Assembly: GCF_009914755.1 (NCBI RefSeq)
Contig: NC_060931.1
Direction: 5' to 3' (one strand)
Source: the human T2T-CHM13v2.0 reference genome, Homo sapiens
DNA length: 64,000 nt
In this document: positions 43,832 to 60,497 of the stretch, piece by piece
Layout of the letters: the number at the start of each line of letters is the position of its first letter
How positions within the stretch are numbered: the first letter of the stretch is position 1
Position numbers and translations under genes: made by a program
The notes under the pieces: generated by a model
Told to the model about the DNA's origin: nothing
Database searches by the model: none
Seen by the model: only the letters and a program-made list of their open reading frames with translations

Positions 43832-45029
43832 TTATTCAGATACTCAACATCCACTTGGTGAAGTATTGATAAATTGCTTCTTTTACTATTATTTTTTCTG
43901 ATGAAGTATGTTGACTAACTTAAGGAGAACTTAAGAAAAATTAGATGAAAACAAAAGGATTCCTCTGCCTGCTAAACTTTTTATTGTTGTAAGAAAGCAA
44001 CAAAAAACCACTGAATTCCTATTTTTCCATCATCCTATGTCTTCCTAAAGTCATCCTTAATTTCATCACAGCACCACTGATGAGGCAAAGCCAGGGTGGA
44101 AATGAAGGTGGCAGTAAGCTGAATTGTAACTTGGAACTGGCTGTGGCCAGCCTCCACGTGACCAATTTTGTAATTTATTATTAACTTTATGCAGCTACAC
44201 ACAAAAGGGAGTGAAGATTGCACAAGAGGCTCTGCTAATAGCAAAGTCTTTTAGGACCTAGAGCTGTGAACTACAAACAGTTTATCTTCAAGTGCCCAGG
44301 AAGTGATGGTAGAATTCAGGTTGCCTGACAGAAGCAATTTAGATTCTTCAGCAATAGAGGAGAGTTTGAATGTGAAGACATTCTCCTCTCAAACTTATAT
44401 CACCTTGAAGAGTGGACAAATCCCAAGCTTTACTGTTTCGGGCTACCAGGCACAAATGTGATTGCAAACCAGACAAAAGTGTCCCCACAAGTTCATGAGC
44501 AGATTTTAAAACCAACCTGTTTCTCTGCCTCTGGTTTCAAAGAAACTAATTGCTCAGGATGCACACAGATGGTGTCTGACTCATTGTTTCTTTCCTTCAT
44601 GTCACTGGATGTTAAATTAGTAATGGTAATAAACAACCACATATATTCACAGAGAAAAATGTATGAAGCTAAAATTAGAATCTTTGTCATGCAACATTGA
44701 TTTGTTCCAGAAGTTGGAGCTAGATTGGTCAGCAAGTGAATGTTTCAGCCTTGTCACTCCAAGTCTTTTTGAGCCCTGAGCACAGACAACCCTAGTGTCA
44801 TTGACCTTAATAAATGGAGAGTTGCTGAGAAAGCTTCTAGTCCACTGCCAGGCCTCCAGCTGTGGCCTTCCAGTACACACGCCCCTCCTCAGCTCAGACA
44901 ACTTAGTGCTCTATGCACTTGCTGCTGTGCAGGGGACCTCAACACCTCTAGAATGCAGTACAGAAGTTGCCATTTACATCTTTAAGGTCCTAGACATGTG
45001 GCAGCTTATTTGCTAACTGAAGTCGCCAC

Positions 45030-45220
45030 ACTGATCAGTCATTGGATGCAGGCCACCCTGGGAAAGGGTGTGACATTGGAGGAGGTAGGTTTCTGCAGAG
45101 GGGACAATCCATAAAGGGGCTGACAGTTGAAGGCTGTTGGCCCATGACATTCTCAGGAGCTGGGGCAATGAGGCTTCACTGATGGGGGAGCTGGGCAGTG
45201 CATCCTTGTGTCTAGCGCAC
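45030..45220 (-). mobile_element. LTR16/LTR33-like ERVL LTR fragment
   Basis: cagtcattgg...gggctgacagttgaaggctgt...ggggagctgggcagtgcatc. Confidence 0.55.
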
Positions 45221-47229
45221 GGCTACTTCAAGTCACTTTTCCCAGAAGACTCTTCTATCACAATTGAAACTTCTTCAAGTTTCTGCCTGAGATAAGCTTT
45301 CTCCATGGTTTTCAGACCAACATCACTTGCCCCAAACTCTCCACCCCTTCTCATGATCAGTCTCATTTTTTTCTCCACTTTATTTGATTTGTCACACTGT
45401 CTCATGGATATCTGTCCCTAGATGGGTAAGCTTACTTCTACATTTATGGTTATGTTCACTTAGTAGCTTTTCTCCACTGTTTACAATAGTCAGCTCTGTC
45501 TGTACAAAGAATCAGGCTCCAAATAATGAAATGTTGGCTGAACTTGTCCTACTTTTCAACTTCTGAACATGTAGAGTACACAGGGTTCCAAACTATAGTT
45601 TGCTCCCACAGAGTTGGCTTCCTTTGTGTTTTTCATGAACCAAACTCAATCTAATTTACTACAAAAAGTGTGTTCCTGTCAGTTCACTCCAGTCACATGA
45701 GAAATCGATTGGCCTTTCTAAGGGAGAAGAGGAATCATTTCCCAAAATGATAAGAGAAACAAAGCCAGCCAGGGTTAGAAGACTCCTTTTAAATCTCCTC
45801 CTCCTGAAAATAAATGAGAAGAAGAGTCGATAAACTCATTCCCCACATTCCACATAGTGGCCTCAGCAATATTATGCTTCACTGGGCAAAACAGCTTCGA
45901 AGTGCCTGCTTTTACCTAATAGCACCTAAGTGCACTCTGAGTGCCTTCATTTCAATGATTAATCAAGAAAAAACTCAATGATTAATCATTTCAATACTCT
46001 GTGGCTGCATTCCTTTGGTGCTCCATGTACAATAGGACAAATTAGGTAATAAACTTTCTGGCATTTATTCCATTCAATTGAATACTTCTCCACTTTTTTA
46101 GCTGTAATCTCTGACGTTATCTAGCATAAGTGGTCTGCATGGAAATTGTGATTTTTTTCCTAACCTAGTTTCTTTTCCAAGTAAAATTACATCCTTAAAG
46201 GTTCATCCACTCCTCACCAGGGCACTAGACAAAAACTCAGCCTTGATTTTCTCACCTTTGAACAAGTTGTTTTGTTACCTCCAGTTCCTGGTAAAATCCC
46301 CCTGCTGTTTGTTCATAAGGCTTCCACAGTACACATGAACAGAAAATGCACAGTACACATGAACAGAGACCCCAGAACAAAGTGAGATCCAAAGTGACTT
46401 GCAAGCAATGCTTGGGGAAGAGAAAAAGGGGAAGAGATATTTGAAAAGTTACATTAATAGAAGAGGGAGAATCAGATTGACATTTGGAACTTTTCTTTCT
46501 TAAGAAGATAATTACCACTAACTCTTCATCAAAGAGGCATCATTTTGAAATTTTTTTCTGGCTGCCAGGATTAGTTAATATGATAACACATACAGTTTCT
46601 TTCTCTCTCTCTCTCTCTGTCTCTTTCTTCCCTCCCTCCCTCTCTTTTTCAGTCTCTTGCAATCAAAAACATACTTGATCAACACATCCAGCTAGGGTTT
46701 AAGGTGTAGTGTGGAATAGGACAGCTGTTTTTCTCTGGGATGCTACTTGATGCGTGGAACACAAAACGGAGTGTGGTCACTTCTAATAAGCTATTTGACT
46801 TAGCAAAAGCTAATAATGAGAAAAAAAGATTTTGTTGTTTTTATTGTGGCTGTTATTCAGTCACTATAAGTTATCATATTATTATGTAGGGCCTTAAAAG
46901 TTATTGAGAATCTACGGACAATGAAAAAGACACCAAAAATGTAAAGTAGTTAAGTCATGTTCCTGCCCTTGAGAAATAAAACATAGATTTGGAAGAACTT
47001 GAGGTTGAAAGAAAATTTAACTGCTTTTTGGGGTTGGCAGGATCTTTAGAGATCGCTCACTTCAGTAGAGGAGAATGCAGCACTGAGAGCAAAAGTGACT
47101 TGTGGTTTGTTTAGAATCACTGAGCAGAAATGGAACCAGAAGTTGGATCTTCATATTCCTAGCTCACTGTACTTTTTATTACTCAAATTGCCTTCATGGT
47201 CTCCAGTGAGAGTCCATTCACCCTAAGAC

Positions 47230-50562: not shown

Positions 50563-51213
50563 TGTTCTTGAAAAAATAAAAACGGAAGCTCAGATTTGTA
50601 TGCAAGAATTATTTCAAGGTTATTTATAATAAAATGAAAATACATTTAATATTCAACCTTAAGAGGACTAGATAATAAACAAAACAGGTCTGTACTGTGG
50701 ACAGTTATATAGCCATTAAAAATGATATTTTTGGAGGTGGCCGGCAATATGGCCAAATAGGAACAGCTCCAGTCTGCAGCTCCCAGTGAGATCAATGCAG
50801 AAGGTGGATGATTTCTGCATTTCCAACTGAGGTACCCGGCTCATCTCACTGGGACTGGTTAGACAGTGGGTGCAGCCCATGGAGGGCGAGCCAAAACGGG
50901 GTGAGGCATAGCTGAAGAGGGGCGAGGCATTGCCTCACCAAGAAAGTGCAAGGGGTTGGGAAACTTCCTCCCCTAGCCAAGGGAAGCCTTGAGGGACCGT
51001 GCCATGAGGAATGGTGCATTCCAGCCCAGATACTATGCTTTTCCCATGGTCTTCGCAACCTGCAGACCAGGAGATTCCCTCAGATGCCTACACCACCAGG
51101 GCCCTGGGTTTCAAGCACAAAACTGGGCGGCTGAAGGGCAGACACTGAGCTAGCTGCCGGAGATTTTTTTTATACCCCAGTGGAACCTGGAATGCCAGTG
51201 AGACAGAACCGTT

Positions 51214-52125
51214 ATAAATGGGGAGTCGCTGAGAAACCTTCTAGTCCACGGCCAGGCCACCAGCTGTAGCCTTTCAGTACACATGCCCCTCCTCAGCTCA
51301 GACAAGTTAGTGCTCTATGCACTTGCTGCTGTGCAGAGGACCTCAACACTTCTAGAATGCAGTACAGAAGTTGCCATTTACATCTTTAAGGTCCTAGACA
51401 TGTGGCAGCTTATTTGCTAACTGAAGTCGCCACAGTGATCAGTCACTGGATGCAGGCCACCCTGGAAAAGGGTGTGACATTGGATGAGGTAGCTTTCTGC
51501 AGAGGGGACACTGGAGGCCATAAAGGCAATTTGAGTAATAAAAAGTACAGTGAGCTAGGAATATGAAGATCCAACTTCTGGTTCCATTTCTGCTCAGTGA
51601 TTCTAAACAAACCACAAGTCACTTTTGCTCTCACTGCTGCATTCTCCTCTACTGAAGTGAGAGATCTCTAAAGATCCTGCCAACCCCAAAAAGCAGTTAA
51701 ATTTTCCTTCAACCTCAACTTCTTCCAAATCCCATGTTATATTTCTCAAAGACAGGAACATGTTTTAACTACTTACATTTTTGGTGTCTTTTCCATTGTC
51801 TGTAGATTCTCAATAAATTTTAAGGCCCTACATAATAATATGATAGCTTATAGTGACTGAATAACAGCCACAATAAAAATAACAAAATCTTTTTCTCTCA
51901 TTATTAGCTTTTCCTAAGTCAAATAGCTTATTAGAAGTGATCACACTCAGTTTTGTGCTCCACGCATGAAGTAGCATCCCAGAAAAAAACTGCTGTCCTA
52001 TTCCACACTACACCTTAAACCCTAGCTGGATGTGTTGAACAAGTATGTTTTTGACTGCAAGAGACTGAAAAACAGAGGGAAGGAGGGAGGGAGGGAGAAG
52101 ACAGAGGAAACTCAGTAATTATGTT

Positions 52126-52185
<60 letters not shown>

Positions 52186-52442
52186 TCTCTCTCTCATGAG
52201 ACGGGGTGGAGAGTTTGGGGCAAATGATGTTGGTCTGAAAACTATGGAGAAAGTTTATCTCAGGCAGAAATGGGAAGAAGTTTGAGGCGTGATAGAAGAG
52301 TCTGCTGGGAAAAATGACTTGAAGTAGCCATGTGCTAGACACAAGGATGCACTGCCCAGCTCCCACATCAGTGAAGCCCCATTGCCCCAGCTCCTGAGAA
52401 TGTCATGGGCCAATAGCCTTCAACTGTCAGCCCCTTTAGGGA
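51214..52442. repeat. Rearranged local duplication of parts of 44810-47208
   Basis: 51214-51510 is 44810-45106 direct. 51509-52126 is the reverse complement of ~46584-47208. 52194-52442 is the reverse complement of ~45108-45357. Confidence 0.95.
52128..52195. repeat. (TC)n microsatellite, ~34 units
   Basis: Nearly pure TC run with one CC interruption. Confidence 0.98.
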
Positions 52443-55400
52443 GGTTTTTTTATACCCCAGTGGAACATGGAATGCCAGTGAGACAGAACCATTCACTCCC
52501 CTGGAAAGGGGGCTGAAGCTAGGGAGCCCAATGGTCTAGTTCAGCAGATCCCACGCCCATGGAGCCCAGCAAGCTAAGATCCACTGGCTTGAAATTCTCG
52601 CTGCCAGCCCAGCAGTCTGAAGTCAACCTGGGATGCTTGAGCTTGGCACGGGGAGGGGCATCTGCCATTACTGACGCTAGAGTAGGTGATTTTACCCTCA
52701 CAGTGTAAACAAAGCCACCAGGAAGTTCGAACTGGGCAGAGCCCAGCGCAGCTTGGCAAAGCTGCTGTAGCCAGACTGCCTCTCAAGATTCCTCCTCTCT
52801 GGGCAGGGCAACCCTGAAAGAAAGGCAGCAGTCCCTGTCAGGCGCTTATAGATCAAACTTCCATCTCCCTGGGACAGAGCACCTGGGGGAAGGGGTGGCT
52901 GTGGGTGCAGCTTCAGCAGACCTAAATGTTCCTGCCTGCTGGCTCTGAAGAGAGCAGCCAATCTTTCAGCACAGCATTCAAGCTCTTATCAGAGCCTCCC
53001 CAAGTGGCTCTGATCACACTGCCTCCCCAAGTGGGTCCCTGACCCCCGTGCATCCTGATAGGCAGATACCTCTCAGCAGGGGTTGACAGACACCTCATAC
53101 AGGAGATCTCTGGCTGGCATTTGCTGGGTGCCCCTCTGGGACGAAGCTTCCAGAGGAAGGAAAAGGAAGCAATTTTTGCTGTTCTGCAGCCTCCGCTGGT
53201 GATACCCAGGCAAACAGGGTCTGGAGTGGACCACCAGCAAACTCCAGCAGACCTGCAGCAGAGAGGCCTTACTGTTAGAAGGAAAACTAACCAACAGAAA
53301 GGAATAGCATCAACATCAACAAAAAGGATGTCCACACAAAAACCCCATCTGAAGGTCACCAACATCAAAGGTAGATAAATCAATGAAGATGAGGAAAAAC
53401 TAGCACAAAAAGGCTGAAAATTCCAAAAACCAGAACACCTCTTCTCCTCCAAAGTGTCACAACTCCTCACCAGCACGGGAACAAAACTGGACAGAGAATG
53501 AGTTTGACAAATTGACAGAAGCAGGCTTCAGAAGGTGGGTAATAACAAACTCCTCTAAGCTAAAGCAGCTTGTTCTAACCCAATACAAGGAAGCTAAGAA
53601 CCTTGAAAAAAGGTTAGACGAATTGCTAACTAGAATAACCAGTTTGGAGAAGGACATAAATGACCTGATGGAGCTGAAAAACACAGCACGAGAACGTTGT
53701 GAAGCATACACAAGTATCGATAGCCGAATCAATCAAGCAAAAGAAAGGACATCAGACACTGCAGATCAACTTAATGAAATAAAGTGTGAAGGCAAGGTTA
53801 GAGAAAAAAGAATGAAAAGGAACGAACAAAGCCTCCAAGAAATATGCGAATATGTGAAAAGACCAAACCTACATTTGATTGGTGTATGTGAAAGTGACGG
53901 GGACAATGGAACCAAGTTGGAAAACACTCTTCGGGATATTATCCAGGAGAACTTCCCCAACCTAGAAAGACAGGCCAACATTTCAATTCAGGAAATACAG
54001 AGAATACCACAAAGATACTCCTCAAAAAGAGCAACCCCAAGATACAGAATCATCAGATTCACCAAGGTTGAAATGAAGAAAAAATGTTAATGGCAGCCAG
54101 AGAGAAAGGTTGGGTTATCCACAAAGGGAAGCCCATAAGACTAACAACAAAGATCAAAAGAGACAAAGAAGGCCATTACATAATGGTAAAGAGACCAATG
54201 CAACAAGAAGAGCTAACTATCCCACCCAATATGTATATATATATGCACCCAATACAGGAGCAGCCAGATTCATAAAGCAAGTTCTGAGAGACCTACAAAG
54301 AGACTTAGACTCCCACAAAATAATAGTGGGAGACTTTAACACCCCACTGTCAATATTGGATAGATCAATGGGACGGAAAATTAACAAGAATATTCAGGAC
54401 TTGAACTCAGCTCTGGACCAAGCAAACCTAATAGACATCTACAGAACTCTCCACCCCAAATCAACAGAATATACATTCTTCTCAGCACCACATCACACTT
54501 ATTCTAAAATTGACCACATAATTGGAAGTAAAACACTCCTTAGCAAACGCAAAACAGCAGAAATCATAACAAACAGTCTCTCAAACCACAGTGCAATCAA
54601 ATTAGAACTCAGGATTAAGAAATTCACTCAAAACCACACAACCACATGGAAACTGAACAACCTACTCCTGAATGACTGCTGGGTAAATAGTGAAATTAAG
54701 GCAGAAATGAACAAGTTCTTTGAAACCAATGAGACCCAAGACACAGCATACCAGAATCTCTGGGACACAGCTAAAGCAGTGTTTAGAGGGAAATTTATAG
54801 CACTAAATGCCCACAGGAGAAAGCAGGAAAGATCTAAAATCCACACCCTAACACCACAATTAAAAGAACTAGAGAAGCAAGAGCAAACAAATTCAAAACC
54901 TAGCAGACGACAATAAATAACTAAGATTAGAACAGAACTGACGGAGATAGAGACACACACACACACACAAAAATCCTTTAAGAAATCAATGAATCCAGGA
55001 GCTGGTTTTTAGAAAAGATTAATAAAATAGATAGACTGCTAGCCAGACTAATAAAGAAGAAAAGAGAGAAGAATCAAATAGACACAATAAAATATGATAA
55101 AGGGGATATCACCAATGATCACACAGAAATACAAACTACCATCAGAGAATACCATAAACACCTCTATGCAAATAAACTAAAAAATTTAGAAGAAATGGAT
55201 AAATTCCTGGACACATACACCCTCCCAAGACTAAACCAGGAAGAAGTCGAATCCCTGAAGAGACCAGTATCAAGTTCTGAAATTGAGGCAGTAATTAATA
55301 GCCTACCAACCAAGAAAAGCCCTGGGCCAGGCAGATTCACAGCCAAATTCTACTAGAGGTACCAAGAGGAGCTGGTACCATTACTTCTGAAACTATTCCA

Positions 55401-58400
55401 AACAATAGAAAAGGAGGGAATCCTCCCTAACTCATTTTATGAGGCCAGCATCGCCCTGATACCAAAACCTGGCAGAGACACAACAAAAAAAGAACATTTC
55501 AGGCCAATATCCTTGATGAACATCGATGCGAATATCCTCAATAAAATACTGGCAAACCAAATCCAGCAGCACATCAAAAAGCTTATCCACCACGATCAAG
55601 TTGGCTTCATCCCTGGGATGCAAGGCTGGTTCAACATACGCAAATCAATAAACATAACCCATCACATGAACAGAACCATCAACAAAAACCACATGATTAT
55701 CTCAATAGATGCAGAAAAGGCCTTCAACAACATTCAACACCCCTTCATGCTAAAAACTCTCAATAAACTAGGTATTGATTGAATGTATCTCAATATAAGA
55801 AGAGCTATTTATGAAAACCCACAGCCAATATCACACTGAATGGGCAAAAACTGGAAGCATTCCCTTTGAAAACCAGCACAAGTCGAGGATGCCCTCTCTC
55901 ACCACTCCTATTCAACACAGGAGTTGTGAACAGGGCACATTGGAAGTTCTTGCCAGGGTAATCAGGTAAGAGAAAGAAATAAAGGGTATTCATATAGGAA
56001 GAGAGGAAGTCAAATTGTCTTTGATTTCAGATGACATGATTGAATATTTAGAAAACCCTATGGTCTCAGCCCCAAATCTCCTTAAGCTGATAAGCAATTT
56101 CAGCAAAGTCTCAGGACACAAAATCAATGTGCAAAAATCACAAGCATTCCTATACACCAATAACAGACAAACAGAGAGCCAAATCATGAGTGAACTCCCA
56201 TTCACAATTGCAACAAAGAGAATAAAATACCTAGAAATACAACTTACAAGGGATGTGAAGGACCTCTTCAAGGAGAACTACAAACCACTGCTCAAGGAAA
56301 TAAGAGAGGACACAAACAAATGGAAAAACATTCCATGCTCATAGATAGAAAGAATCAATATCATGAAAATGGCCATACTCCCCAAAGTAATTTACAGATT
56401 CAATGCTATCCCCATCAAACTACCACTGACTTTCTTCACAGAATTAGAAAAAACTACTTTAAATTTCATATGGAACCAAAAAAGAGACCCTATAGCCAAG
56501 ACAATCCTAAGCAAAAAGAACAAAGCTGGAGGCATCACACTACCTGACTTCAAGCTGTACTACAAGTCTACAGTAACCAAAACAGCATGGTACTGGTACC
56601 AAAACAGATATATAGACCAATGGAACAGAACAGAGCCCTCAGAAATAACACTACACATCTGCAACCATCTGCTCTTTGACAAACCTGACAAAAGCAAGCA
56701 ATCGGGAAAGGATTCCCTATTTAATAAATGGTGTTGGGAAAACTGGCCAGCCATATGCAGAAAACTGAAACTAGACCCCTTCCTTACACCTTATATAAAA
56801 ATTAACACAAGATGGATTAAAGACTTAAACCTAAGACCTACAACCATAAAAACCCCAGAAGAAAACCTAGGCAATACCATTCAGGACACAGGCATGGCAA
56901 ATACTTTATGACTAAAACACCAAAAGCAATGGCAAAAAAAGCCAAAATTGACAAATGGGATCTGATTAAACTAAAGAGCTTCTTCACAGCAAAAGAAACT
57001 ATCATCAAACAGGAAACCTACAGAATGGGAGAAAATTTTTGCAATCTATCCATCTGACAAAGGGCTAATATCCAGAACCTACAAAGAAGTTAAACAAATG
57101 TACAAGAAAAAAAAAAAACCCCATCAAAAAGTGGGTGAAGGCTATTTACAGACACTTCTCCAAAGAAGACATTTATGTGGCCAACAAACATACGAAAAAA
57201 AGCTCATCATCACTGGTCATTAGAGAAATGCAAATCAAAACCACAATGAGATACCATCGCATGTCTGTTAGAATGGTGATCATTAAAAAGTCAGGAAACA
57301 ACAGATGCTGGAGGGGATGTGGAGAAATAGGAAAGCTTTTACACTGTTGGTGGGAGTGTAAATTAGTTCAGCCATTGTGGAAGACAGTGTGGTGATTCCT
57401 CAAGGATCCAAAACTAGAAATCCCATTTGACCCAGCAATCCCATTACTGGGTATATATCCAAAGGATTATAAATTATTATACTATAAAGACACATGCACA
57501 CGTATGTTTACTGTAGCACTATTCACAATAGCAAAGACTTGGAACCAACCCAAATGCCCATCAATGATAGACTGAATTAAGAAAATGTAGCACATATACA
57601 CCATGGAATACTATGCAGCCATAAAAAAGGATGAGTTCATGTCGTTTGCAGGGACATGGATGAAGCTGGAAACCATCATTCTCAGCAAAGTAACACAGGA
57701 ACAGAAAACCAAACACCACACTTTCTCACTCATAAGTGGGAGTTGAACAATGACAACACATGGACACAGGGAAGGGAAAATCACTCAGTGGGGCCTGTTG
57801 GGATGTGTGGGGATAGAGGAGGGATAGCATTAGAAGAATTACCTAATGTAGATGACAGATTGATGGGTGCAGCAAACCACTATGGCCCATGTATACCTAT
57901 GTAATAAACCTGCATGTTCTGCATATGTTCCCCAGAACTTAAAGTATAATAAAAAAAGATATTTTTGAAGAGTAAGTAAAGATATAATGATCATTATCTA
58001 TGTTAAGCTATTAAATAGGATATAAAATTATATATATAATCATTTCATTCTAAAAGAAAATAAATATATGCATGAAGGTTACCTCAAGAAAATATGACAA
58101 AACATTTCAATTATTTAAAGTGATAGAATTAAGCAATATTTTTTGTTCTTGCTAAGTTTCTAATTTCCCAAATTTCAGGAATGAAATTGCCTTGCTTAAA
58201 AAAACAGAAAAAACAATCCGTATGCATTTTTTTTTTTTTAGAGCTTAGAATATTGCTTTCAAGTGCTTCCAGCATGTTCAGGGCGGCCTTTCATAAGTAT
58301 TACTAGTACACAATAAAAAGTTCTTATTTTTTGTGAAAAAAGGCATAATTTGTTGGCTTGATTTGTATGTCTGCCTGGATCTGAAAGTTGTAGAATTTAT

Positions 58401-58571: not shown

Positions 58572-58932
<361 letters not shown>

Positions 58933-59829
58933 TGTAGTGTTTTTTTTGTTTTGTTTTTTGTTTTAAGGGTCACCTCTGAAAAATTTACAGATGACATGAT
59001 GTGATGTAAGGTGGAAGATCAAAAAAATTGGCAGAATATTGGTGATTGGTACATCAGTATGTGGAGGTCATTCTATCACTTGCTTGACTTCTGTGCATGA
59101 TTAAATTTTTTCTGTAACAAAAACAATTAAAAATAAATCTGAAAACAGAGTTTCACTGGGTTTGGGTGTCAGACAATCTGGTGCATTGAAAGTAAACAAA
59201 AAGACAAGGGGCCTGCCCAGAGGGAAGAACTGGGGAGGGAGGTAGGAAACCAGTGAGAGCACATCACCTGTCTGCCCATCATGTATCCTCTCAGCCCTGT
59301 GCCAATTTCCCCCAAGGCCCATAGGAAGTTTACTGCTTAGAATCCCCAGTGAGCTGCCTCAAATTTGGGATTAGGAAGAACAATGTTTCCCCATTAGTGT
59401 GGAAAGTAATTTCTATTCTTTGTGTGTGGCATTTTCCCCTGTCATTGCAAGCACCTCTGCTTTAGGCCTTGGTCCCTGGAATTGCAACTTTATTTACCTG
59501 TAAAGCAAGGAGATGAGCCAATAGAAATGAATTATGCCTATCATTACTGAGAAGTCAGCAAAATCTAGAGGAGCCTCGAAAAAGGAGACCGTCTATCTAC
59601 AGTTCAGCTATATGGGTCAGCAGGCATTTGAAATCCAACACATAGACGAAGAAAATCATAAAGGCTGAACTTAGGGGAAGAGTGAGGAATCTGTCTAATG
59701 GATGCAGTCTTCTTTGTTACCGTAAGGTTAGACTCCCTATGGTTGCTTATTTTCAGGTTTATTTGTTTTGAAAAAGACTGATGAGAGTTAATAAGTTAAA
59801 ATACATAAAGTAGGTACAATTAGGTTTTT

Positions 59830-60458: not shown

Positions 60459-60497
<39 letters not shown>

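What the first reader, a model, noticed from the sequence alone, without database searches (positions are those of the whole stretch)
51159..52493. Complex 1.23-kb locally templated insertion inside an L1PA 5'UTR, with twin-priming-like geometry and a ~54-bp flanking duplication
Seen: the L1 5'UTR breaks at 51213 and resumes at 52440. The segment ggag(a/g)ttttttt-ataccccagtggaac(c/a)tggaatgccagtgagacagaacc(g/a)tt is present on both sides (51159-51213 and 52440-52493). The insert is copied from DNA 4-7 kb upstream. Piece A is 44810-45106 direct (about 16 differences in 297 bp by eye). Piece C is ~47208->46584 inverted. A (TC)n spacer follows. Piece B is ~45357->45108 inverted. A and B are adjacent in the source, and the junctions show 2-3 bp microhomology (CA at A/C, GGA at B/L1). 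Established: read on the minus strand, the order B-C-A(rc) is the layout that L1 twin priming gives for a minus-strand RNA of the source. Against that, there is no poly(A), the duplication is much longer than a usual L1 TSD and it does not start at TT|AAAA, and the missing 1.2 kb lacks GT-AG ends. Inference: this is either multi-step replication template switching (FoSTeS/MMBIR) or endonuclease-independent RNA-templated repair using a neighbouring nascent transcript, probably after the L1 inserted.
Basis: partly seen in the sequence, partly recalled or inferred. Interest (0 to 1): 0.8.

Follow-up and report, generated by a model that had tools for sequence, protein, structure and literature searches.

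The report
Twin-primed local copy inside old L1
About 1.2 kb of unique DNA from 4-6 kb upstream was copied, partly inverted, into the start of an old L1 element in a way that looks like two broken DNA ends copying one single-stranded template; it is a real and unusual, but ancient and probably neutral, repair scar.

Summary
A full-length, + strand, decayed L1 (50733-~57951) is interrupted at about its nt 481 by a 1,226-bp insert (51214-52439). The insert is flanked by a 54/55-bp duplication of L1 sequence that 19 of 19 other L1 copies carry only once.

The insert is made of three pieces of nearby DNA, each with only two full copies in the genome. A is source 44804/10-45106, direct. C is 47208->~46582, inverted. 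A (TC)34 tract follows. B is 45356->45108, inverted. A unique 1.2-kb source stretch is skipped.

All pieces and the duplication are equally diverged (66/1155 = 5.7%, chi2 p=0.44). This fits one old event that happened after the L1 inserted.

Both L1 ends were extended into source + sense DNA, so one minus-polarity strand was the template. A stops 1-6 nt from where B starts, which is the logic of twin priming. There is no poly(A), no L1 endonuclease site and no splice.

My best reading (0.5) is two-ended priming on one single-stranded template. I favour RNA, possibly from this L1's own antisense promoter, which points at the source. Serial DNA template switching (FoSTeS/MMBIR, 0.33) is not excluded. 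Nothing here shows whether the template was RNA or DNA.

I class it as a new variant of known kinds, of moderate interest.

The parts
50733..57951 (+). Host element: a full-length, decayed primate L1 with 5'UTR, ORF1, EN and RT. It has its own 15-bp target duplication AAAAA(T/A)GATATTTTT at 50718-50732 and 57952-57966.
   Evidence: Homology to 19 other L1 copies starts at 50723-50749. Pfam hits are Transposase_22, Tnp_22_trimer, Exo_endo_phos and RVT_1 on + strand frames.
51159..51213 (+). Left copy of the duplicated L1 target, 55 nt. The first 3 nt (GGA) and last about 6 nt (ACCGTT) are ambiguous with microhomology.
   Evidence: The segment is single-copy in 19 of 19 other L1s.
51214..51508 (+). 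Piece A: a direct copy of source 44810-45104. With junction microhomology the range is 44804-45106.
   Evidence: 279 of 295 identical. Only 2 full copies genome-wide.
51509..52127 (-). Piece C: an inverted copy of source 47208->46611 (firm). It probably runs on to ~46582 with small indels (52107-52127).
   Evidence: (536 of 564 identical). Only 2 full copies genome-wide. The 15-mer at 52113-52127 has no other match in the window.
52128..52195 (.). (TC)34 microsatellite at the C/B junction, with no counterpart at either source edge.
   Evidence: Tandem Repeats Finder; sequence.
52196..52439 (-). Piece B: an inverted copy of source 45354->45111. With microhomology the range is 45356->45108.
   Evidence: 223 of 242 identical. 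Only 2 full copies genome-wide.
52440..52493 (+). Right copy of the duplicated L1 target, 54 nt. The L1 5'UTR continues from here.
44804..45356 (+). Source of A (44804-45106) and B (45108-45356). The two abut, with only 45107 (at most 45105-45110) unassigned.
45357..46581 (+). Source stretch that was skipped in the copy. It is unique in the genome.
   Evidence: One match genome-wide, itself.
46582..47208 (+). Source of C. It includes a TC/TCCC-rich tract at 46594-46650, which reads as GA/GGGA-rich in minus sense.

Best explanation
This was one event, in a germline ancestor well after the L1 had inserted. The L1 5'UTR was opened at two offset positions: the + strand after 51213 and the - strand before 51159. 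That left two overlapping 3' ends about 54 nt apart.

Both 3' ends annealed by 2-5 nt of microhomology to the same single-stranded molecule carrying the minus strand of the DNA 4-6.4 kb upstream.

- The + strand end primed at source 44804-44810 and copied 300 nt. It stopped at 45106, where it ran into the second primer.
- The - strand end had primed at 45108 and copied towards 47208. It jumped over 1.2 kb at a GA dinucleotide. A (GA)n/(TC)n tract arose there, either at once or later.
- The two new strands were joined at a CA microhomology, and the gaps were filled. This duplicated the 54 bp.

This is the logic of L1 twin priming applied to a non-L1 template that had no poly(A), at a site that is not an L1 endonuclease site.

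I think the template was most likely RNA: a minus-sense transcript of the upstream flank, plausibly started at this L1's own antisense promoter, which lies around the break and points at the source. A cellular or L1 reverse transcriptase would have copied it.

What is shown: the anatomy, the copy numbers, the template polarity, the abutment and the equal age of the parts. What is inferred: the order of steps, the enzymes, and RNA rather than single-stranded DNA.
For: 1. Layout and polarity. The left L1 end continues into source + sense (A). The right L1 end, read on the - strand, also continues into source + sense (B, then C). So both were copied from a minus-polarity template (coordinates).

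2. Abutment. A ends at 45104-45106 and B starts at 45108-45111. Twin priming predicts this. In 287 L1 5'-inverted insertions, 132 (46%) had the two cDNA ends within 20 bp of each other (PMC12016303, section 8 read). Under free serial switching, landing within a few bases inside a 2.4-kb source is about a 1-in-400 coincidence (my estimate).

3. Inverted and direct parts of one template, bounded by a target duplication, define twin priming. The second primer comes from the 3' overhang left by the second nick (PMC2837659 passages).

4. A single event. Divergence is 16/295 for A, 28/564 for C, 19/242 for B and 3/54 for the duplication, with no heterogeneity (chi2 p=0.44).

5. Local, non-repeat origin. 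A, C and B each have exactly two full copies in the 3.1-Gb genome.

6. RNA lean. Kilobase-long single strands are normal for RNA. The L1 is on the + strand with its 5' end at 50733, and the break is at about L1 nt 481. L1HS/L1PA2-8 antisense promoter activity lies within the first 600 bp of the 5'UTR and transcribes into the upstream flank (PMC4908685 passages). Such transcripts would be minus sense across 47208->44804, the required polarity. RNA-derived patches at double-strand breaks are documented in human cells and as polymorphisms (PMC5110952, parts 1-2 read).
Against: - There is no poly(A) at the A end.
- There is no AATAAA or ATTAAA in minus sense within about 50 nt upstream of 44804 (read).
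- The nick sites, CGTT|CA on the + strand and CTCC|GG on the - strand, do not resemble TTTT/A.
- A 54-bp duplication is well above the usual L1 medians of 13 bp and 21 bp.
- The 1.2-kb skip is not a clean intron. There is no acceptor, and intron-side bases seem to have been copied. So nothing positively marks RNA.
- There is no APOBEC- or ADAR-like bias in the differences: C>T 10, G>A 12, A>G 9, T>C 5.
- Documented RNA-templated patches come from distant loci, not from 4-6 kb away. A cis donor is the hallmark of replicative template switching.
- No transcript is annotated here (hub note), and I have no expression data.
- The L1 subfamily was not determined by any search. Whether it had an active antisense promoter is therefore assumed from the look of its 5'UTR.
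- A DNA model with a + strand 5' end at 45107/8 would also explain the abutment.
Confidence: 0.5

Rival explanations
1. Replicative serial template switching on DNA (FoSTeS/MMBIR). A nascent + strand left the L1 at 51213 and then made four switches.

1. It re-primed by microhomology on the source minus strand at 44804 and copied to 45106.
2. It switched to the opposite strand at 47208 and copied leftward.
3. It slipped across 1.2 kb and continued to 45108.
4. It returned to the L1 54 bp upstream of where it had left, which produced the duplication.
For: - There is microhomology of 2-5 nt at 4 of 4 junctions.
- The donor lies in cis, only 3.9-6.4 kb away.
- The insert mixes direct and inverted segments.
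- The donor is intact, so there is copy gain.
- A return upstream of the departure point gives a flanking duplication of any length without needing a nuclease.
- Templated insertions of hundreds to thousands of bp with microhomology are taken as signatures of iterative template switching (PMC5120786 passages).
- Inverted duplications with 1-15 bp of microhomology are common in human populations and are ascribed to replication (PMC12350158 passages).
- The ts:tv ratio of the differences is low (36:27), and there is a 7-in-18 nt mismatch cluster in B. These could reflect error-prone synthesis, but both are weak evidence.
Against: - It needs four switches.
- It gives no reason for B to end 1-6 nt from where A ended, unless one adds a + strand 5' end at 45107/8.
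- It gives no reason for all the synthesis to be reducible to two primers working on one strand.
Confidence: 0.33
2. Several separate events: first a plain duplicative insertion of about 2.4 kb (44804-47208) into the L1, later an inversion of part of it, and later still a 1.2-kb deletion with microsatellite growth.
For: - Each step is an ordinary mutation.
- The (TC)34 tract and the skip could well be later changes.
- B is slightly more diverged than A and C together (19/242 against 44/859, Fisher p=0.12).
Against: - The inversion would need one breakpoint exactly at the insert/L1 boundary.
- No inverted repeats are present to mediate it.
- The divergences are statistically homogeneous (p=0.44).
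- It does not explain the first insertion or its 54-bp duplication.
Confidence: 0.07
3. Ordinary L1 ORF2p trans-mobilisation of a polyadenylated minus-strand transcript with twin priming, that is, a 5'-inverted retrocopy whose poly(A) tail was later lost.
For: - The geometry is that of twin priming.
- 5' inversions occur in processed pseudogenes, 3 of 23 in one study (PMC12016303).
- About 9% of germline L1 calls lack a detectable tail in the same table.
Against: - No A-rich remnant is present at the junction.
- There is no polyadenylation signal upstream of the 3' end.
- The site is not an EN-type site.
- The duplication is 54 bp long.
- The donor is 4-6 kb away, which is very unlikely for a cytoplasmic RNP choosing a random target.
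- The copy is unspliced and intergenic.
Confidence: 0.05

Closest known systems
L1 twin priming (5'-inverted L1 insertions and retrocopies; Ostertag and Kazazian 2001. The original paper is not held, so I know it through PMC2837659 and PMC12016303.)
   Same: - Two parts of one template lie in opposite orientation between target duplications.
- The direct part ends where the inverted part begins on the template.
- There is microhomology at the priming sites and at the internal joint.
- The piece lengths, 0.3 kb and 0.9-2.1 kb, are in the usual range.
   Different: - The template is not L1 and not a known mRNA.
- There is no poly(A).
- There is no TTTT/A site.
- The duplication is 54 bp, not about 13-21 bp.
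- The donor lies in cis a few kb away.
- There is an internal 1.2-kb skip with a microsatellite.
Templated sequence insertions and polymorphisms (TSI/TSIP classes 1 and 2; Onozawa and Aplan, PMC5110952)
   Same: - Unique genomic sequence is copied, not cut, into a break.
- Like class 2, it has microhomology and lacks a poly(A) tail and an EN site.
- Like class 1, it has a target duplication.
   Different: - It fits neither class. Class 1 needs poly(A), a signal and TTTT/A. Class 2 has no duplication.
- TSI donors are distant, often on other chromosomes.
- The inverted two-part structure is not part of either class definition as I read it.
FoSTeS/MMBIR complex insertions and inverted or complex duplications (PMC5120786, PMC12350158)
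   Same: - Microhomology at the junctions.
- Nearby templates.
- Mixed orientations.
- Copy gain.
- A small duplication at the insertion site.
   Different: - The whole structure reduces to two primers on one strand, with abutting start and stop points. The replicative models do not predict this.
- The event is small and isolated, with no accompanying larger copy-number change in the window.
Endonuclease-independent L1 insertion at DNA breaks (Morrish 2002; Sen 2007, PMC1920257. I saw only the search listing and the description in PMC5110952.)
   Same: - Priming by microhomology at a pre-existing lesion.
- No poly(A).
- No EN site.
   Different: - The inserted sequence is not L1.
- A long target duplication is present, whereas ENi events typically lack one.

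Membership tests
L1 twin priming | Two segments of one template in opposite orientation, together flanked by a target-site duplication | tested here: met
   A is direct and C+B are inverted, all from one 2.4-kb source interval, between 54/55-bp L1 duplicates.
L1 twin priming | The end of the non-inverted cDNA and the start of the inverted cDNA lie close together on the template | tested here: met
   45104-45106 against 45108-45111, a gap of 1-6 nt. For reference, 132 of 287 L1 cases lie within 20 bp.
L1 twin priming | Poly(A) tail at the 3' end of the non-inverted segment | tested here: not met
   The junction reads ...GAACCGTT|ATAAATGG..., with no A/T run. There is no AATAAA or ATTAAA in minus sense within about 50 nt.
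L1 twin priming | First nick at an L1 endonuclease-type site (TTTT/A and close variants) | tested here: not met
   The + strand nick context is CGTT|CA and the - strand context is CTCC|GG.
L1 twin priming | Target duplication of usual L1 size (medians 13 bp and 21 bp in two surveys) | tested here: not met
   54/55 bp.
L1 twin priming | RNA template copied by L1 ORF2p | not testable with these tools
   There is no splice junction, no editing bias and no expression data.
TSIP class 1 | TSD of at least 5 bp, plus a poly(A) 10-30 nt after a signal, plus a TTTT/A site | tested here: not met
   Only the duplication is present. Definition from PMC5110952.
TSIP class 2 | No TSD and no poly(A), with NHEJ-type junctions (microhomology, microdeletion, untemplated bases) | tested here: not met
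   Microhomology and the lack of poly(A) fit, but a 54-bp duplication is present.
FoSTeS/MMBIR templated insertion | Microhomology at the breakpoint junctions | tested here: met
   ACC.T(T), CA, GA/TC and GGA at 4 of 4 junctions. Each is short enough to occur by chance on its own.
FoSTeS/MMBIR templated insertion | Iterative switches between nearby templates, in either orientation, with copy gain | tested here: inconclusive
   The structure is compatible with four switches within 6.4 kb. It is equally explained by two primers on one strand.
FoSTeS/MMBIR templated insertion | Origin during DNA replication or break-induced replication | not testable with these tools
   No assay is possible on a fixed ancient allele.
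Endonuclease-independent L1 insertion | Inserted sequence is L1, 3'-truncated, without a TSD | tested here: not met
   The insert is unique non-L1 DNA, and a duplication is present.

The most novel reading that the evidence does not exclude
The L1's own antisense-promoter transcript, still near its site of synthesis, served as the template. A lesion in the antisense-promoter region of the 5'UTR was repaired by reverse transcription from both break ends (twin priming without endonuclease or poly(A)). This wrote part of the element's upstream flank into the element itself.

If that is right, it would be a germline, fixed example of cis nascent-RNA-templated break repair in primates. It would also suggest that bidirectional L1 promoters can seed local templated insertions.
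Probability: 0.15. Interest if true: 0.65.

Novelty: new variant of a known kind. Interest (0 to 1): 0.42.

Why it matters
Whether mammalian germline breaks are ever patched from RNA, and by which polymerase, is still argued from a small number of polymorphisms and reporter assays.

This locus is a clean, sequence-resolved natural case. The geometry fixes the polarity of the template and shows that two break ends used one strand. It lacks every hallmark of L1 endonuclease action.

On its own it cannot settle whether the template was RNA or DNA. It does define a searchable signature:
- a long target duplication;
- two abutting, oppositely oriented pieces;
- a donor in cis;
- no poly(A).

A genome-wide or cross-primate census of that signature, compared with transcription direction, could answer the question.

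For annotation, it explains why an L1PA-type 5'UTR carries 1.2 kb of unmasked unique sequence. No gene or annotated function is affected.

Tried and rejected
1. Multi-copy repeat origin of A, B and C. Rejected: each has two full copies genome-wide, and the other hits are 31-70 bp.

2. The skipped 1.2 kb as a later repeat insertion in the source. Rejected: it is single-copy, and I saw no retroelement ends in the sequence.

3. The skip as a spliced intron in minus sense. GTATGT follows the last firm base of C, but a gapped alignment suggests those bases were copied, and no AG or polypyrimidine acceptor precedes B. Not supported.

4. Origin of the 15 nt at 52113-52127. There is no second match in the window with up to 3 mismatches. 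The stretch is best read as a diverged continuation of C.

5. A fold-back between the GA-rich end of C and (TC)34. The predicted hairpin is no more stable than dinucleotide shuffles (z=0.30, 126 of 200 shuffles fold as well).

6. Editing or deamination bias as a mark of a cDNA intermediate. None was found.

7. The 54-bp repeat as a normal L1 feature or a junction of two L1s. Rejected by the 19 of 19 single-copy result and the shared private states.

9. Ostertag and Kazazian 2001 is not held.

10. Five searches of the held library listed no paper describing a twin-primed, poly(A)-less copy of an L1's own upstream flank. That covers only the listed titles and abstracts.

11. The best other copies are 86-89% identical over 314 bp.
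Full report
**What is there**

The window holds a full-length but decayed L1 on the + strand, from 50733 to about 57951.
- Homology to 19 other L1 copies from the same genome begins at 50723-50749.
- + strand frames give Pfam hits to the L1 ORF1 trimerisation and RBD-like (RNA-binding) domains, the endonuclease and the reverse transcriptase.
- The element has its own 15-bp target duplication, AAAAA(T/A)GATATTTTT, at 50718-50732 and 57952-57966, after a short A-tail.

At about L1 nt 481 the 5'UTR is interrupted by 1,226 bp (51214-52439).

- A: 51208/14-51510 = 44804/10-45106, direct.
- C: 51509-52106 = 47208->46611, inverted.
- (TC)34: 52128-52195.
- B: 52194-52442 = 45356->45108, inverted.

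**Is the flanking repeat a true target duplication?**

Yes. In 19 of 19 other L1 copies (L013-L031), the sequence left of the insert and the sequence right of it map to one continuous 5'UTR and overlap by about 54 bp. So L1 carries this segment once.

The two copies in the window (55 and 54 nt) differ by 3 substitutions and one T-run indel. There are four columns where both window copies carry a state that is not the majority among the other 19 copies: 51171/52451, 51184/52464, 51185/52465 and 51210/52490. At all four, the two copies share the same state. They are therefore copies of each other, made from this element.

The T-run near the left edge of the duplication is L1 sequence, not a tail.

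**Is the insert local, unique DNA?**

Yes. In the 3.1-Gb genome, A, C and B each have exactly two full-length matches, the source and the insert. The remaining hits are 31-70 bp.

The 1,228 bp of source between B and C (45357-46584) match only themselves. The copy therefore skipped unique DNA. The source did not gain a later repeat.

**One event or several, and when?**

Differences between insert and source are:
- A: 16/295
- C: 28/564
- B: 19/242
- the duplication: 3/54

There is no heterogeneity (chi2 p=0.44), and B against A+C gives p=0.12. The overall figure is 66/1155 = 5.7%.

The duplication is as diverged as the insert is from its source, which is what one event predicts.

From recalled primate substitution rates, not from any call, 5.7% between paralogues corresponds to roughly 20-30 million years. 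That is near the ape/Old World monkey split, so this is not an assembly artefact.

The L1's best relatives are only 86-89% identical over 314 bp, in line with an older element. I did not determine its subfamily.

**Junctions**

- L1/A: the L1 ends ...ACCGTT and the source reads ACCTTA before ATAAATGG. This is an imperfect 4-5 of 6 match.
- A/C: 2 nt, CA.
- B/L1: 3 nt, GGA.
- C/B: B ends and C begins with GA in source sense, and (TC)34 sits between them.

A gapped alignment suggests that C continues weakly from 46611 to about 46582.

In minus sense, a GTATGT follows the last firm base of C. But those bases seem to have been copied, and no acceptor precedes B, so I do not read the skip as an intron.

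**What the geometry says**

The left L1 end (+ strand, 3' end at 51213) continues into source + sense (A). The right L1 end, read on the - strand (3' end at 51159), also continues into source + sense (B, then C).

Both syntheses therefore copied a template of source-minus polarity. A plus-polarity template cannot give this layout with L1 ends as primers.

The first product stops at 45104-45106. The second starts at 45108-45111. That is what happens when one primer's extension runs into the other primer on the same strand.

This is the twin-priming scheme (PMC2837659 passages). In 287 L1 cases, 46% had the two ends within 20 bp of each other (PMC12016303, section 8).

Under unconstrained serial switching, I estimate the abutment as a coincidence of a few parts per thousand. 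A DNA variant with a + strand 5' end at 45107/8 would also explain it.

**What is missing for an L1-driven event**

- There is no poly(A) at the A end.
- There is no polyadenylation signal in minus sense upstream of 44804.
- The nick contexts, CGTT|CA and CTCC|GG, are unlike TTTT/A.
- The duplication is 54 bp, against medians of 13 bp and 21 bp.

The event fits neither class of templated sequence insertion polymorphism. Class 1 needs poly(A), a signal and an EN site. Class 2 has no duplication, and its donors are distant (PMC5110952).

**RNA or DNA?**

Nothing in the sequence marks RNA. There is no splice and no deamination or editing bias: C>T 10, G>A 12, A>G 9, T>C 5.

A donor 4-6 kb away in cis is typical of replicative template switching. 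Microhomology with templated insertions of hundreds to thousands of bp is its accepted signature (PMC5120786). Inverted duplications with microhomology are common in human populations (PMC12350158).

For RNA there are three arguments:
- A 2.4-kb single strand is natural for RNA.
- The structure reduces to two primers on one strand.
- There is a directional coincidence that I consider worth noting. The break lies within the first 600 bp of the 5'UTR, where L1HS/L1PA2-8 antisense promoter activity maps (PMC4908685 passages). Antisense transcripts from this + strand L1 would run leftward across 47208->44804 in minus sense, which is the required polarity.

The same transcription could instead expose the minus DNA strand in an R-loop. 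The minus-sense RNA is GA/GGGA-rich at 46594-46650. That is speculation on my part.

Pol theta is reported to reverse-transcribe RNA in repair (PMC8195485). I saw only the listing and the start of the abstract.

**Verdict**

My probabilities are:
- Two-ended (twin) priming on one minus-polarity single strand, with RNA favoured: 0.5.
- FoSTeS/MMBIR on DNA: 0.33.
- Several separate events: 0.07.
- Canonical ORF2p retrocopy with a lost tail: 0.05.
- Something else: the small remainder.

It is a new variant of known kinds, ancient, with no gene or annotated function affected. It is mainly useful as a template for a census that could test RNA-templated repair in the primate germline.

**Limits**

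- No other primate genome, expression data or named repeat library was available.
- The original twin-priming paper was not held.

Noticed in passing
52271-52288 (insert B) against source 45262-45279: Seven of the 19 B differences fall within 18 nt: ATGGG...GAGGCG in the insert against ACTTG...CAATTG in the source. The source version forms a 7-bp-arm inverted repeat, GAAACTT/AAGTTTC. This looks like a short template-switch mutation in one lineage, or error-prone synthesis. It explains why B looks slightly more diverged.
   Followed up: partly
source 45026-45098 and 45160-45219 (loci L003-L005, L011): Short 60-70 bp matches at 82-86% identity on other chromosomes, on both sides of the A/B boundary. 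They may be remnants of an ancient low-copy repeat that spans the point where the second primer annealed.
   Followed up: no
46594-46650 and 52076-52195: The source has a TC/TCCC-rich tract. In the insert, its inverted (GA-rich) copy lies 21 nt from the new (TC)34, so a purine tract faces a pyrimidine tract. The predicted hairpin is not better than shuffles. The origin of the (TC)34 is unexplained.
   Followed up: partly
50718-50732 and 57952-57966: The host L1's own 15-bp target duplication, AAAAA(T/A)GATATTTTT, with a very short A-tail at about 57944-57951. The element is about 5.9 kb without the insert.
   Followed up: yes
58700-58965: Sequence that I recognise from memory as an Alu on the minus strand, with a T-rich stretch at 58938-58965, just beyond the L1's 3' end.
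   Followed up: no
60461-60495: A pure (A)35 run, presumably the tail of another retroelement.
   Followed up: no
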